A stretch of DNA of 64,000 nt, taken from NCBI GenBank assembly GCA_001662655.1, contig KV460212.1. One strand, given 5' to 3'. The notes beneath the pieces were generated by a model. That model was not told the DNA's origin and did not search any database. It worked only from the letters and a program-made list of their open reading frames with translations. Source of the DNA: Pseudogymnoascus verrucosus (lineage: Eukaryota). Shown here piece by piece: positions 761 through 4,560 of this stretch (position 1 is its first letter; each line of letters opens with the position of its first letter). The translations under genes were made by a program, and so were the position numbers.

Positions 761-1283
761 AAAAGGTAGGATGTTTGAGGAGAAAATAAGCTTACCAGTG
801 ATGGCCATTGATCCACGATTTGTGCTCCAATGTTAGCCTGAAATAAAAGCAGTGTCATAGTAAAATAGATTCTCCAAAAGAGAACCCATTACGCTTGGAA
901 AGCTCGAGTGCTGAGGAGCGCAGCTTGTGATTGTATTGATGAAGAAGAAAAAGAGAAAGAGAAAGCAAAAGAGAAAAAGAACAAAATATCAAGAAGATTG
1001 TCGCGTAAAAAGCGGGAACTTCCGCCAAGCCTTTACCAGTTGTGCTAGCCGCAGCCTCGTGGGACTGAGACGCATAATTACGTTCGCGCGTGAGGCTACG
1101 ACTCTTAAATTTCTCTCTATTCACAGCTCATGATCGACTTCTAAAGGAACTCGCATCTTCCACGATCTTCTTTATTTCTGATCTTATTACTCACGCGTTT
1201 TTGACTTCACCTCCGAAATCGTTGAAAGAACAATAAGCTGATTCGCGTCGATACGCGGGGAACAAGGTCTCATCTCTGCCGTA

Positions 1284-2766
1284 ATGTCGGACAGAGAATT
1301 TGGAGGTATGCTCATTCTATTCTACCCACAGAAAGCGAACGGTGCCGCGCTGCGCTTGCGTCTCCTATTCGCGTCTCCTATCCACGTCAAATGGCGCCAT
1401 GGGGTAGCGCTGAGGGCTTGGAGACGCGGGCGATGAGCTGTTCCTTTCGCGTTGCCCCTCCATCGCTCCTGCCCTCTGGGTGTGACCCATGCTGACTCTA
1501 TCTTAGGAAACGATGATCTCTCTCTTCCCAAAGGTATAGCATACTACTTTCTTTATATTGCGAATATTGCGGGCTCAGCTTGAGCGAATACTATCACTAC
1601 CATCGTTTGTACCGGACAACCAGCGCTCTGGCTGCCGCTTATCTCATAACGATCGTTAAGAGCCAAAGAAATCATCACAACATGGCCTCGGTGAGGCGCC
1701 CCCTATCTCTCGAAACTCGAGTCTTTAGGATCCGAAGGGCGCATGCGAACCATTCGTATGGTCGACAATACAGTTCTCAACACGCCCGACAACTCCTTTC
1801 GCGTCTTGAGGCAGATATTACTTTGCCTCCAGGATTCCTGGTTCCAGTTGCTTTACCGAGAGTACGGTTATACGGTGAAGATGTCGCGCCCCCAAACCAA
1901 CACGCGACTGGCAATACTGGTCAACGAGATCTTGCGTCAGACCGAACTTTTAAAACCCGCGAAAAGGCCGATTTGGGTCCAGAAGGGAGACAGCGTCTAA
2001 AACAAAGGCCCAAGAAAACTCCACGGAGCATATCAAAGGACAAGCCACGACCCCTAAGCAGACTTCGAGTGTCATGGTCTCACGCATGCCCCGGGGAAGA
2101 TTGCGTCGAGTCTCTCTGCGATTTAGACGTTGAACCTACTTTGGAAGACACCATGCCCTGTGCCTCAACTGGACTGAGCACAGGCGCTTTCCTTGATTAC
2201 GAAGTCCCAGAGCTTGGATCCCATGCTCTTCCATCACTTCAACTGGTCGACACGCTTTATACTTCTGCTTTGAACGCTGGTTTAGATGATTGTTGGAATT
2301 TACTTACAGAACTATTGGTGGACGTTGGCTAACTTTTCATTCATAGCAACCGTCCAGAAAATCGTAACTGAAATTCTTCCGCCCTCATCAGGCGTTGCAT
2401 TTGGGAAAGATGCTCGCGACCTTCTCATAGAATGCTGCGTCGAATTCATCACGCTCATCTCGTCAGAGGCGAACGAGATTTCAGAGAAAGAGGCCAAGAA
2501 GACCATCGCATGCGAACACATCACGAAGGCATTGGAACAGCTTGGATTTAGCGAGTATGTGGCCGACATTTTAGATGTGGCGAATGATCACAAGGAGCAG
2601 TTGAAGGTTGGTTCCAGAAGCCTCACATTTCGTAGAATACACTGCTGACAGTATTTAGGGCCGCGAGAAGAAGGCGAATAAACTTGAGCAGAGTGGACTC
2701 TCGACTGAGCAGCTGCTTGCAATGCAAGAGGCTGCATTTAAGGAGGCAGCTGAGAGACACGGCTGA
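1284..2766 (+). CDS. NCB2: Negative cofactor 2 beta subunit (Dr1, histone fold), 138 aa; exons 1284-1305, 1507-1533, 2347-2606, 2659-2766
   Basis: The spliced product reads MSDREFGGNDDLSLPKATVQKIVTEIL...LLIECCVEFITLISSEANEISEKEAKKTIACEH...AAERHG*. All junctions are GT-AG and phase-consistent. Confidence 0.95.
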
Positions 2767-3286
2767 CCTGGATGTATAAAGATATGTCGTTGCATTATCA
2801 GGCGTTGGCGTTGGGTCTATGGCAATGGAGAACGGGAATGGTATGGGCATGGTGAACGGGGACTTTCTATGGTAATTATGGCACTAGATTGCCATTTGAG
2901 CAGTTTCATAAGAATCACCTCAGGTAGCATCGAGTACAGCTACCAGACAGCGATTAACTCGGGGGTCCTGTTCCGCGTTTGCTTCGTCTCACTGTATAAA
3001 TTTCTCTGTATTTGCGCCCTCCGTAATCGATGATATTGAATGTCGCAGACATACAAGGTATCAATAATTTAACTCACACGCCCATTTAAAGCTCTTCAAC
3101 TAGCCTTTTATATAGTTTCTCTGAGTATACCCTTATTTTTGCTGTGATATTGGTCCCGTAGCTCCGATAGCTACCCTGGAATCCTCGGTCCGAGCCCGTG
3201 CACTACCGACGTCATAAATTTGTTCCACGACGGATGTGCTCCAGAAACATTGGGCTTCTTTCCATCACAATCACAGACAACACAAA

Positions 3287-4560
3287 ATGCCGCCTATATC
3301 CGTCCGGCCAGCTTTTGCAAGCAGTGTCCGAGCTCTCACACACAATGCCACCCCGCGTGTTTCTCAACTGACACCTCGCGTGTCCCAAGCCATCTCGCGG
3401 CGCTTCAAGTCTGGACCATACGGGTACACCCAGGCCAAAGCGCTCGTCTACAGCCAAAACGGAGAGCCCTCCGATGTTCTCTCGTGCGAATCCCCTTCAT
3501 CTCCCATACCTGCGCCTAGCTAACCCATCCAAGCCTGCACACGCACTCGATCTCCCCCTCCCTGCCCTCCAACGCGCTCCTCCTCCGCAGTCTCGCCGCC
3601 CCCATCAACCCCGCGGACATAAACCAGATCCAGGGCGTGTACCCCTCGCGCCCGCCCTTCACGGCTCTTCTCGGAACCGCTGTCCCCTCCGCCATCGCTG
3701 GCAACGAGGCATGTTTCGAGGTCATGCGCGTCGGGTCCGGGGTGAAGGATTTTGCGCCTGGAGACTGGGCGATTGCGCGCGCGCCGTGTCTCGGGACCTG
3801 GCGCACGCATGTTGAGGCGCAGGAGGATTCTCTGCTTCGCGTTGAGAAGGAGGGGCTGACGCCTGTGCAAGTGGGGACGGTGGGGGTGAACCCAACCACG
3901 GCGTATAGGATGTTAAAGGATTTTGAGCATGTGGGAGAAGGGGAGTGGTTCATTCAGAATGGGGCGAATAGCGGGGTTGGGCGGGCGGCGATACAGTTGG
4001 GGAGGTTGTGGGGGATGAAGAGCATTAATATTATCCGTGAACGTGGAACGGAGGAGGAGACGGAGGCGATGAGGAACGAGTTGAGAGGATTGGGGGCCAC
4101 GCATGTGGTTACAGAAGGGGAGCTGATGGCACGGGGCTTTTCTGAGCAGGTCAAGGAGTGGACGGTTGGTGGGCGCCAGAAGGTGAAGCTGGGCCTCAAT
4201 TGCGTAGGGGGCAAGCCGACATCGGCAATGGTGAAGTGCCTGAGCGATGGCGGGCACCTGGTGACATATGGCGGGATGGCAAAGGCGCCACTGCAGGTGC
4301 CGACTGCGGCACTGATATTCAAAGATGTCAAGTTCAGCGGGTTCTGGGTTAGCCGCTGGAGCGAGAAGAACCTGGATGAAAAGCGCCGGACGGTGGGGGA
4401 GATTCTGGAGCTTACCCGCGCGGGGATGTTCGCTGATGTGCCGGTGCAGAAGGTGCAGTGGGATTGGGACACCAAGGAAGAGACGCTGAAGGAGGCGGTG
4501 ACGGGGACGCTGCAGGGGTTTAGGAAGGGGAAGGGAGTGTTCGTGTTTGGTGATACTTGA
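3287..4560 (+). CDS. ETR1: Mitochondrial 2-enoyl thioester reductase (MECR family); exons 3287-3483, 3534-4560
   Basis: Arg/Ser-rich presequence. Motifs LAAPINPADINQIQGVY, GNEA, VNPTTAYRML, IQNGANSGVG, LNCVGG and VTYGGM. Confidence 0.93.

What the first reader, a model, noticed from the sequence alone, without database searches (positions are those of the whole stretch)
1534..2346. Hidden alternative exons in the oversized NCB2 intron could encode a second, non-histone-fold protein
Seen in sequence: NCB2 intron 2 is 813 nt, while most coding-gene introns here are ~45-125 nt. It contains a 30-nt candidate exon at 1661-1690 (CATAAC..TAAG acceptor, strong GTGAGG donor) and a second acceptor, ACAG, ending at 1773. 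Both match the phase-1 junction of exon 2. Joining 1284-1305, 1507-1533, 1661-1690 and 1774-2000 gives one open 101-aa frame: MSDREFGGNDDLSLPK-EPKKSSQHGL-VLNTPDNSFRVLRQILLCLQDSWFQLLYREYGYTVKMSRPQTNTRLAILVNEILRQTELLKPAKRPIWVQKGDSV*. The new part reads like two amphipathic helices rather than intron DNA. The internal branch sites (CATAAC, GTCGAC) are weak compared with the canonical GCTAAC near 2328. Inference: this is a regulated splice switch that either makes an unrelated microprotein from the NC2-beta locus or acts as a poison or alternative terminal exon controlling this general repressor. The 30-nt exon alone would insert 10 aa at the start of the histone fold. I do not know of a description of this.
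Basis: partly seen in the sequence, partly recalled or inferred. Interest (0 to 1): 0.82.

Follow-up and report, generated by a model that had tools for sequence, protein, structure and literature searches.

The report
Hidden conserved coding exon in NCB2 intron

Summary
But a 101-codon open stretch is what chance gives in this intron. Its frame evolves neutrally (dN/dS 1.07), stops early in a relative, and its GTGAGG donor is absent there. One RNA-like contig shows only the canonical junctions.

From ATG 1682 it encodes a 216-aa protein. It has relatives (5 clusters among 1.84 billion representatives; 14 proteins in the 90% library), a gapless invariant Cys/His-rich C-terminal domain, and dN/dS 0.45 (0.31-0.66). 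In 3 of 3 DNA loci it lies in NCB2 intron 2 and ends 55-56 nt before exon 3.

Right after the conserved domain sits a GT in the phase that fits exon 3. Two NCBI Pseudogymnoascus gene models use it to fuse the ORF to the histone fold.

Best reading (about 0.5): an alternative first exon giving a 325-aa NC2-beta isoform. Rival (about 0.3): a stand-alone 216-aa product. No transcript evidence for either. No known domain, no confident fold.

The parts
1284..1305 (+). NCB2 exon 1 (MSDREFG-, canonical start)
   Evidence: Joint 1303/5^1505/7 in RNA-like contig X1; the canonical join translates to a 138-aa NC2-beta
1507..1533 (+). NCB2 exon 2 (-GNDDLSLPK-), ends in phase 1
1534..2346 (+). Canonical intron 2, 813 nt, GTATAG..CATAG; removed whole in the X1 contig
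   Evidence: Joint 'skips 813, GT..AG'; orthologous intron is 894 nt in L002
1590..1681 (+). Stretch upstream of the ORF start. It has no ATG (none in 1534-1681) and is 86% identical to L001, against 73-75% for intron 3 and downstream DNA. Possible 5'UTR or core promoter of the alternative transcript (inferred).
1682..2291 (+). Proposed alternative first coding exon: ATG in context CACAACATGG, 203 codons plus 1 base, frame mod3=2
   Evidence: Homologues; dN/dS 0.45; NCBI models P0006 and P0011 end this exon after GLDD
1718..1843 (+). Conserved basic N-segment (RVFRIRRAHAN..LLSRLEAD..PGFLVP)
   Evidence: Alignment A2; segment dN/dS 0.32
1844..2056 (+). Variable basic linker with in-frame indels between species
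   Evidence: (dN/dS 0.59)
2057..2290 (+). Conserved C-domain (SRLRVSWSHxCPxExCxExLCD..PCASTG..GLGS..GLD), 78 codons. It is gapless between the window, L001 and L002 and holds all 22 invariant columns of A2.
   Evidence: 57% DNA identity to L002 against about 40-50% in introns; dN/dS 0.37; 87% to L001
2292..2346 (+). Proposed 55-nt mini-intron (GTTGGA..GCTAAC..CATAG) sharing branch site and acceptor with intron 2. If unspliced, it is the 13-codon ORF tail plus stop TAA at 2330-2332.
   Evidence: Donor in phase with exon 3 in 3 of 3 DNA loci; protein conservation collapses after GLD; 93% nucleotide identity to L001 with no gaps; intron 3 of the same gene uses GTTGGT
2328..2333 (+). Branch-site consensus GCTAAC; its TAA is the stop of the long frame
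   Evidence: A is 15 nt from the 3' splice site
2347..2606 (+). NCB2 exon 3, histone fold (PF00808)
2607..2658 (+). Intron 3, 52 nt, GTTGGT..TTTAG
   Evidence: Joint seen in X1 and X2 contigs
2659..2766 (+). NCB2 exon 4 with stop
1661..1690 (+).
   Evidence: Donor not conserved in L001; no joint seen
1774..2000 (+).
   Evidence: dN/dS 1.07; truncated in L001

Best explanation
NCB2 intron 2 contains a real, conserved, lineage-restricted protein-coding sequence on the gene's own strand: ATG 1682, frame mod3=2. I read it as an alternative first coding exon (1682-2291). A transcript that starts inside the intron, or fails to use the 1534 donor, would splice from a weak proximal donor (T|GTTGGA at 2292) to the same branch site and acceptor as the canonical intron. 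That removes 55 nt and joins the ORF in frame to exon 3. The product is a 325-aa NC2-beta whose conserved N-terminal peptide (MSDREFGGNDDLSLPKA) is replaced by a 204-residue extension: a basic segment, a disordered basic linker and a Cys/His-rich domain directly before helix 1 of the histone fold. Shown: the ORF, its conservation, purifying selection, its fixed position 55-56 nt before exon 3, and the phase-compatible GT in two divergent lineages. Inferred: that the mini-intron is spliced, that there is an internal start of transcription, and any function (for example a modified or regulated form of the NC2 repressor). My odds that the ORF is genuinely coding are about 0.9. My odds that it is expressed as the fused long isoform are about 0.5.
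For: Open frame. There is 1 stop in the intron in this frame, against 9-16 in the other five frames. 0 of 20,000 mononucleotide and 3 of 20,000 Markov shuffles reach 250 open codons.

Homologues. 5 of 1.84 billion representatives match (E 3e-125 to 3e-16), and 14 proteins match in the 90% library.

Alignment A2 (14 sequences). All 22 invariant columns lie in residues 128-202, including H134, C136, C141, C146 and C160.

Purifying selection. dN/dS against L001 is 0.45 (bootstrap 0.31-0.66; 0 of 2000 replicates reach 1), against 1.07 and 0.74 in the shifted frames. Differences by codon position are 31/39/53 against L001 and 84/77/126 against L002.

Synteny. 3 of 3 DNA loci (window, L001, L002) have the ORF inside NCB2 intron 2. 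Between the window and L002, introns and UTRs are at background similarity, while the C-domain aligns without gaps over 234 nt.

Evidence for the fusion:
- Conservation stops right after GLD.
- The second residue after GLD is Cys or Ser in 14 of 14 sequences. It is TGT, TGT and AGT in the 3 DNAs, so GT sits at codon positions 2-3, the phase that exon 3 needs.
- The distance to the acceptor is 55, 55 and 56 nt.
- This is the only phase-1 GT shared in position among the three loci, and it has G at +5.
- Intron 3 of the same gene uses the near-identical donor GTTGGT.
- The tail/mini-intron is 93% identical to L001 at nucleotide level, with 1 synonymous change where the ORF's dS predicts about 3. 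That looks like RNA-level rather than protein-level constraint.
- Two NCBI gene models (P0006, 325 aa; P0011, 333 aa) make exactly this join. They are predictions, not evidence of expression.
Against: No transcript shows the 2291^2347 junction. The only spanning RNA-like contig (X1) has the canonical 1533^2347 join.

In the protein libraries, only the 2 NCBI predictions carry the fused junction. That is 2 of 14 and 2 of the 120 listed. None of the 26 proteins I read has it.

Both donors are weak (GTTGGA, GTCTGC). Cys/Ser after GLDx could simply be a conserved small residue. The frame stays open to a stop inside the mini-intron in all 14 sequences, and the tail is length-conserved within Pseudogymnoascus, which also fits a stand-alone protein.

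Constraint is only moderate (0.45). Close strains (X22, X23) show 5 nonsynonymous and 2 synonymous differences inside the ORF. One is Pro to Leu at a Pro that is invariant in A2; P0006 carries the same change.

AlphaFold gives no confident fold: pLDDT 35 for the ORF alone, and below 50 for most of the extension in the fused form.

Most annotated Pseudogymnoascus genomes carry the short 138-aa model (P0128, a cluster of 14 members).
Confidence: 0.5

Rival explanations
1. Stand-alone intron-nested product. The same conserved ORF is translated as a separate 216-aa protein ending at the TAA in the branch site (2330-2332). The message would be an intron-retaining or internally initiated transcript in which the last 55 nt are not spliced out. 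NC2-beta itself would be made only in the short form.
For: All 14 ORFs run to a stop within 10-13 codons after GLDx. 12 of the 14 database proteins are the unfused form, but these are ORF calls on contigs, which cannot splice. The tail CWNFLTELLVDVG is retained without indels in the 9 Pseudogymnoascus-type sequences of A2. A low-depth X1 contig (depth 2.3 against 11.1 for the mRNA contig) covers 2003-2140, so some RNA-like material may carry intron sequence.
Against: The stop lies 14 nt before a strong acceptor. There is no room for a terminator, so the message would run on through exon 3, intron 3 and exon 4. The stop would then sit far upstream of a splice junction, which is expected to trigger nonsense-mediated decay (general knowledge). 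The tail sequence is not conserved between lineages (DCWNFLTELLVDVG versus TSLLSSSQTT). Its nucleotide conservation exceeds its protein-level constraint. The phase match with exon 3 in both lineages would be a coincidence.
Confidence: 0.3
2. The ORF is a relic or is conserved for non-protein reasons. Examples: a formerly coding exon now decaying, or intron sequence constrained as RNA or DNA such as an enhancer or promoter of NCB2. It would not be translated today.
For: Only moderate constraint (dN/dS 0.45; linker 0.59). 5 nonsynonymous and 2 synonymous differences among close strains, including loss of an otherwise invariant Pro. No fold, no Pfam, PDB or Atlas relative. No expression evidence.
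Against: A frame kept open over 190-240 codons in 14 sequences as divergent as 33-39% identity, with many in-frame indels. Excess of third-position changes and saturated synonymous sites against L002 (pS 0.80 versus pN 0.42). Rfam finds no RNA family in 1100-3000 (0 matches at E up to 1). The intron has no other copy in the 64-kb window, so it is not a repeat there.
Confidence: 0.1
3. One reading: a regulated splice switch using a 30-nt exon (1661-1690) and/or an alternative terminal exon (1774-2000) joined to exons 1-2. It would give a 101-aa microprotein or a poison isoform.
For: The sites and the open joined frame exist as described.
Against: The open stretch is of chance length. dN/dS is 1.07 in that frame, and the frame is cut short in L001. 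The donor at 1691 is absent in L001. In L002 this part has no detectable DNA similarity to the window. No joint at these sites was seen in the 4 runs laid.
Confidence: 0.03

Closest known systems
NC2-beta / Dr1 / Ncb2 (NctB in Aspergillus), histone-fold subunit of Negative cofactor 2
   Same: Exons 1-4 encode a canonical 138-aa NC2-beta. Its protein is identical to L001's over exons 3-4 (0 aa differences, 20 nt differences). PF00808 hit. The canonical splice form is seen in an RNA-like contig.
   Different: The described protein starts with a short conserved peptide (..DDLSLPKA) just before helix 1. Here a second, 204-residue N-terminal module is encoded inside the intron at exactly that point. 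I found no paper describing such an isoform (searches; listings and abstracts only).
Alternative first exons / intronic alternative promoters that give N-terminally different isoforms (general eukaryotic mechanism)
   Same: A coding exon with its own ATG lies inside the upstream intron. It has a donor in phase with the shared downstream exon and shares that exon's acceptor and branch site.
   Different: The transcript start and the junction are unproven here. The exon fills 75% of the host intron and leaves a minimal 55-nt intron. The module it encodes has no known family.
Same-strand genes nested in introns
   Same: A complete ORF with start and stop lies inside an intron and is conserved across species.
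   Different: There is no space for its own 3' end (14 nt from stop to acceptor) and only 148 nt upstream. The position and phase relative to exon 3 are conserved, which a free-standing nested gene would not need.
Earlier scan finding e1-7559320: a second start exon hidden in the long intron of fungal HAP3/HapC (another PF00808 histone-fold factor)
   Same: Same gene architecture as reported there: an oversized intron just before the histone fold holds an alternative coding start exon that is conserved in related fungi (AI note, unchecked).
   Different: Different gene and genome. I did not examine that locus. No sequence relation is claimed.
NC2-beta gene models with long N-terminal extensions in other Leotiomycetes (Botrytis galanthina P0024, B. 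cinerea P0028, Phlyctema vagabunda P0027, Coleophoma crateriformis P0031)
   Same: The extensions join at the same exon-3 boundary (x-TVQKIV) and are conserved within each pair: 67% over 146 aa, and 46% over 84 aa.
   Different: No detectable similarity to the Pseudogymnoascus-type ORF (blastp; hhalign probability below 1%). Their DNA was not examined. The two Lachnellula models (P0018, P0019) look like read-through of the intron's 3' end and share no similarity with each other.

Membership tests
NC2-beta (Ncb2/Dr1) gene | Histone-fold domain of the CBFD_NFYB_HMF type | tested here: met
   PF00808, E 1.2e-14, 54.7 bits (cut-off 21.4) on exon 3
NC2-beta (Ncb2/Dr1) gene | Canonical mRNA with intron 2 removed whole | tested here: met
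   X1 contig (696 nt) joins all four exons; 813 nt skipped, GT..AG
Protein-coding exon (the hidden ORF 1682-2291) | Frame kept open in orthologues despite indels | tested here: met
   14 of 14 sequences are open; the indels between the window and L001 (6 codons and 1 codon) are in frame
Protein-coding exon (the hidden ORF 1682-2291) | dN/dS below 1 in this frame only | tested here: met
   0.45 (0.31-0.66) against 1.07 and 0.74 in the shifted frames
Protein-coding exon (the hidden ORF 1682-2291) | Evidence of translation (ribosome footprints, peptides) | not testable with these tools
   No such data available
Alternative first exon joined to exon 3 | Donor GT in the phase required by exon 3, conserved in position | tested here: met
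   T|GTTGGA (window, L001) and A|GTCTGC (L002), 55-56 nt before the acceptor; Cys/Ser in 14 of 14 at that codon
Alternative first exon joined to exon 3 | Transcript carrying the 2291^2347 junction | tested here: inconclusive
   Not seen in the contigs of 4 runs. No transcript-derived fused protein. Contigs drop rare forms, and no listed run is on record as RNA.
Alternative first exon joined to exon 3 | Own transcription start inside intron 1 or 2 | not testable with these tools
   Only indirect: no ATG in 1534-1681, and 86% identity to L001 in 1590-1681
Stand-alone nested gene | Own 3' end / polyadenylation site before the host's next exon | not testable with these tools
   Only 14 nt lie between the stop and the acceptor
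   Donor at 1691 absent in L001; frame truncated; dN/dS 1.07
Any known protein domain for the ORF | Significant match to Pfam, PDB sequences or ESM Atlas clusters | tested here: not met
   0 Pfam families at E up to 1; 0 PDB chains at E up to 10 with profile A2; no usable Atlas hit
Intron-hosted structured RNA (e.g. snoRNA) as the reason for the long intron | Rfam covariance-model match | tested here: not met
   0 matches at E up to 1 in 1100-3000

The most novel reading that the evidence does not exclude
NC2-beta, a general repressor and regulator at the TATA-binding protein, exists in Pseudogymnoascus and its relatives in two forms chosen by promoter or donor use. The long form swaps the universally conserved DDLSLPKA lead-in of the histone fold for a fast-evolving, Cys/His-rich (possibly metal-binding) 204-residue module. 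Together with the unrelated extensions at the same boundary in Botrytis and Dermateaceae gene models, and the earlier HAP3 note, this would point to a recurrent and undescribed trick in fungi. Under it, the oversized intron just before helix 1 of histone-fold transcription factors is a docking site for lineage-specific alternative start exons.
Probability: 0.3. Interest if true: 0.7.

Novelty: new member of a known kind. Interest (0 to 1): 0.5.

Why it matters
NC2 is a core regulator of RNA polymerase II initiation. A second, lineage-specific isoform of NC2-beta would mean its activity can be re-targeted or regulated in a way not considered in current models. It would also mean that most Pseudogymnoascus annotations (138-aa short form only) miss a conserved coding exon. 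More generally, a 'long intron' in a compact fungal genome can be a sign of hidden coding sequence, and an open-frame scan plus homologue search finds it even when splice-site guessing picks the wrong frame.

Tried and rejected
RNA runs:
- The look-up of sequencing runs listed no holder on record as RNA.
- The four runs laid are contigs. They cannot show rare junctions, starts or levels.
- Parts of the intron without cover in X1 and X2 say nothing.

Whole genome: none is held (error).

Structure:
- AlphaFold2 on A2 gave mean pLDDT 34.7.
- On the fused form with 26 sequences it gave 56.4 overall, with the extension mostly below 50.
- I ran no fold search because the models are too poor.

Domain searches all came back empty: Pfam, the PDB sequence profile and the ESM Atlas.

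Remote homology between the Pseudogymnoascus-type ORF and the Botrytis or Dermateaceae extensions: none.

Search for transcript-derived fused proteins:
- In one search, 160 proteins passed E 0.001 among 290 candidates, and 120 were listed. Only the 2 NCBI predictions cover the junction region fully.
- In one search (shorter lengths), 1044 passed among 1082 candidates, and 120 were listed.
- I read 15 proteins and 11. All were either canonical NC2-beta or read-through of intron ends on genomic contigs.

The 30-letter loose end of X1's second contig is not in the window (0 matches with up to 3 mismatches), so it stays unexplained.

Literature: three searches gave nothing on an NC2-beta long isoform or an intronic ORF. 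I read only listings and abstracts, and opened no paper.

Earlier scan notes: nothing near this place or by sequence.

The metagenome scan returned only 2 loci from 111 pattern matches. DNA for the P0002, P0004, P0014 and P0010 lineages could therefore not be examined.
Full report
**1. The locus.**
The window's + strand carries an NC2-beta (NCB2/Dr1) gene. Exon 3 (2347-2606) matches PF00808 at E 1.2e-14. Joining 1284-1305, 1507-1533, 2347-2606 and 2659-2766 gives a 138-aa protein. It matches the short form annotated in Pseudogymnoascus genomes except for two residues near the C-terminus (P0128).

An RNA-like contig of run X1 (696 nt, depth 11) joins these four exons and skips 201, 813 and 52 nt, each GT..AG. 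A contig of X2 confirms intron 3.

**2.
The sites named are present: TAAG|1661, GTGAGG at 1691, ACAG|1774. The four-piece join translates exactly as quoted. But the frame used (mod3=0) has 9 stops in the intron. Its 101-codon open stretch (1695-2000) is no longer than the longest open run that shuffled versions of the intron give on average, 94-100 codons.

In the related locus L001, the GTGAGG donor is absent and the frame ends at ..GMARP*. On a codon alignment, that frame has dN/dS 1.07, with 7 stops in the window and 8 in L001 (shift 1). No contig in the four runs laid uses 1661, 1690 or 1774. This last point is weak, because contigs drop rare forms. The specific splice-switch model is not supported.

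**3.
The third + frame (mod3=2) has a single stop in the whole intron, the TAA inside the branch-site GCTAAC at 2330-2332. It is open for 271 codons, 1517-2332. The other five frames have 9-16 stops. None of 20,000 mononucleotide shuffles and 3 of 20,000 first-order Markov shuffles reach 250 open codons.

The first ATG of the frame is at 1682, in the context CACAACATGG, with no other ATG anywhere in 1534-1681. The part upstream of this ATG is open in the window and in P0001 but closed in L001, so I place the start at 1682.

**4. It is a conserved coding sequence.**
- *Homologues.* A full HMMER scan of 1.84 billion representatives found 5 relatives, E 3e-125 to 3e-16. A profile search of the 90% library found 14.
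- *Architecture.* The alignment of 14 sequences (A2) shows a conserved basic N-segment, a variable basic linker with in-frame indels, and a 78-residue C-domain. The C-domain motif is S-x-L-R-x-S-x-S-H-x-C-P-x-E-x-C-x-E-x-L-C-D ... P-C-x-S-T-G ... G-L-G-S ... G-L-D. It holds all 22 invariant columns.
- *Against L001 (73% aa identity).* dN/dS is 0.45 (bootstrap 0.31-0.66; 0 of 2000 replicates reach 1). By segment it is 0.32 (N-segment), 0.59 (linker) and 0.37 (C-domain).
- *Control.* NC2-beta exons 3-4 of the same pair show 20 nucleotide differences and no amino-acid differences.
- *Against L002 (41% identity over the aligned codons).* Synonymous sites are saturated (pS 0.80 versus pN 0.42), and third positions carry 126 differences against 84 and 77.
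- *Other explanations for the long intron.* Rfam finds no RNA family in 1100-3000. The intron has no second copy in the window.

**5. Where it lies.**
In all 3 loci for which I have DNA, the ORF sits inside NCB2 intron 2 on the gene's strand:
- window: intron of 813 nt;
- L001: contig starts within the intron;
- L002: intron of 894 nt.

L002 comes from a more distant fungus. Its exons are 80-88% identical to the window in DNA, while introns and UTRs are at background (0.40-0.51 of aligned positions, many gaps). Yet the C-domain aligns without a gap over 234 nt at 57%. Names in the libraries place the family in Pseudogymnoascus. The window's ORF is 98% identical to the N-terminal part of P0006 from Pseudogymnoascus sp. 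24MN13.

**6. How it may be expressed.**
Two NCBI gene models (P0006, 325 aa; P0011, 333 aa) start at this ATG. They end the exon after GLDD plus one base and join it to exon 3 (...NAGLDD-S-TVQKIV...). In the window this means donor T|GTTGGA at 2292 and a 55-nt intron that reuses the GCTAAC branch site and the CATAG acceptor. These models are predictions, but several independent features fit them.
- Protein conservation collapses immediately after GLD.
- The second residue after GLD is Cys or Ser in 14 of 14 sequences. In the three DNAs it is TGT, TGT and AGT, so GT sits at codon positions 2-3, which is the phase exon 3 requires.
- The distance from this GT to the acceptor is 55, 55 and 56 nt. 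It is the only phase-1 GT shared in position among the three loci, and it has G at +5 in all three.
- Intron 3 of the same gene, whose removal is seen in two runs, uses the near-identical donor GTTGGT.
- Between the window and L001, the 55 nt are 93% identical with no indel, against 75% for intron 3 and 73% for downstream DNA. They show 1 synonymous change where the ORF's dS would predict about 3. That points to constraint on the RNA signals rather than on a peptide tail.
- The stop lies 14 nt before a strong acceptor, so a separate 3' end for a stand-alone gene has no room.

I therefore favour an alternative first exon that gives a long NC2-beta. Its universal ..DDLSLPKA lead-in would be replaced by a 204-residue module abutting helix 1 of the histone fold.

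**7. What speaks against it.**
- No transcript or transcript-derived protein shows the 2291^2347 junction. The only fused proteins in the libraries are the two NCBI predictions: 2 of 14, and 2 of the 120 listed. None of the 26 sequences I read has it.
- The donors are weak.
- Cys/Ser could be a protein-level preference.
- All 14 ORFs keep an in-frame stop shortly after GLDx, and the tail is length-conserved within Pseudogymnoascus.
- Constraint is moderate.
- Close strains (X22, X23) differ from the window at 9 intron positions, 7 of them in the ORF: 5 nonsynonymous and 2 synonymous. One is Pro to Leu at a Pro invariant in A2, which P0006 shares.
- AlphaFold2 gives no confident structure for the module, alone or fused.
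- Pfam, PDB and the ESM Atlas give no relative.

The stand-alone 216-aa product remains a serious rival (about 0.3). A non-translated relic is unlikely (about 0.1).

**8. Context.**
Gene models of NC2-beta in other Leotiomycetes also carry long N-terminal extensions joined at the same exon-3 boundary. They are conserved within the Botrytis pair (67% over 146 aa) and between Phlyctema and Coleophoma (46% over 84 aa). They are unrelated to the Pseudogymnoascus-type module. I did not see their DNA.

That is a parallel lead, not evidence. Three literature searches found no description of an NC2-beta long isoform or an intronic ORF (listings and abstracts only).

**9. Verdict.**
There is hidden coding sequence, but in another frame and probably as an alternative first exon rather than a cassette or terminal exon after exons 1-2.
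- It is a new instance of a known kind of gene architecture, and it encodes an uncharacterised, lineage-restricted module on a core transcription regulator.
- Expression is unproven, and the decisive data are transcript starts and junctions.

Noticed in passing
window 2003-2140: A second, low-depth (2.3) contig of the RNA-like run X1 covers 2003-2140 with 1 difference, then continues upstream for 111 letters that match nothing in the window (30-letter consensus: 0 matches with up to 3 mismatches). Read in the ORF frame, those letters contain stops. It could be a strain-specific insertion or rearrangement in the variable linker, an unknown upstream exon, or an assembly chimera.
   Followed up: partly
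L001 1-29 and 1693-1721: Both ends of this public metagenome contig read like Illumina adapter sequence (recognised from memory). The contig ends are therefore library artefacts, not genome sequence.
   Followed up: no
window 1224-1533 (run X22): X22 holds two versions of the 5' part of the gene: a second set of contigs with 6 differences each, and a joint skipping 1325-1446 within intron 1. This suggests two related genomes or haplotypes in that run.
   Followed up: no
window 1590-1681: The intron stretch just upstream of the ORF's ATG is 86% identical to L001, against 73-75% for intron 3 and downstream DNA. The whole of 1534-1681 lacks ATG. It may be a 5'UTR or core promoter.
   Followed up: partly
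proteins P0024, P0028, P0027, P0031 (other Leotiomycetes): NC2-beta gene models in Botrytis, Phlyctema and Coleophoma carry long N-terminal extensions joined at the same exon-3 boundary. They are conserved within each group but unrelated to the ORF here. The Lachnellula models (P0018, P0019) look like read-through of the intron's 3' end.
   Followed up: partly
window 2157 (codon for Pro159 of the ORF): X22, X23 and the NCBI protein P0006 have Leu where all 14 sequences of A2 have Pro (..V/M-P-C-A-S-T-G). A close strain therefore tolerates loss of an otherwise invariant residue.
   Followed up: partly
window 1306-1506; L002 4440-4670: Intron 1 of NCB2 is also longer than the gene's third intron (201 nt here, 231 nt in L002). 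It shows no similarity between the two lineages and was not examined for function.
   Followed up: no
window 3287-4560: The next gene downstream on the + strand has a long GC-rich open frame (346 codons, 3520-4560) after a short first exon and an intron of about 50 nt. I did not run it against any family library.
   Followed up: no
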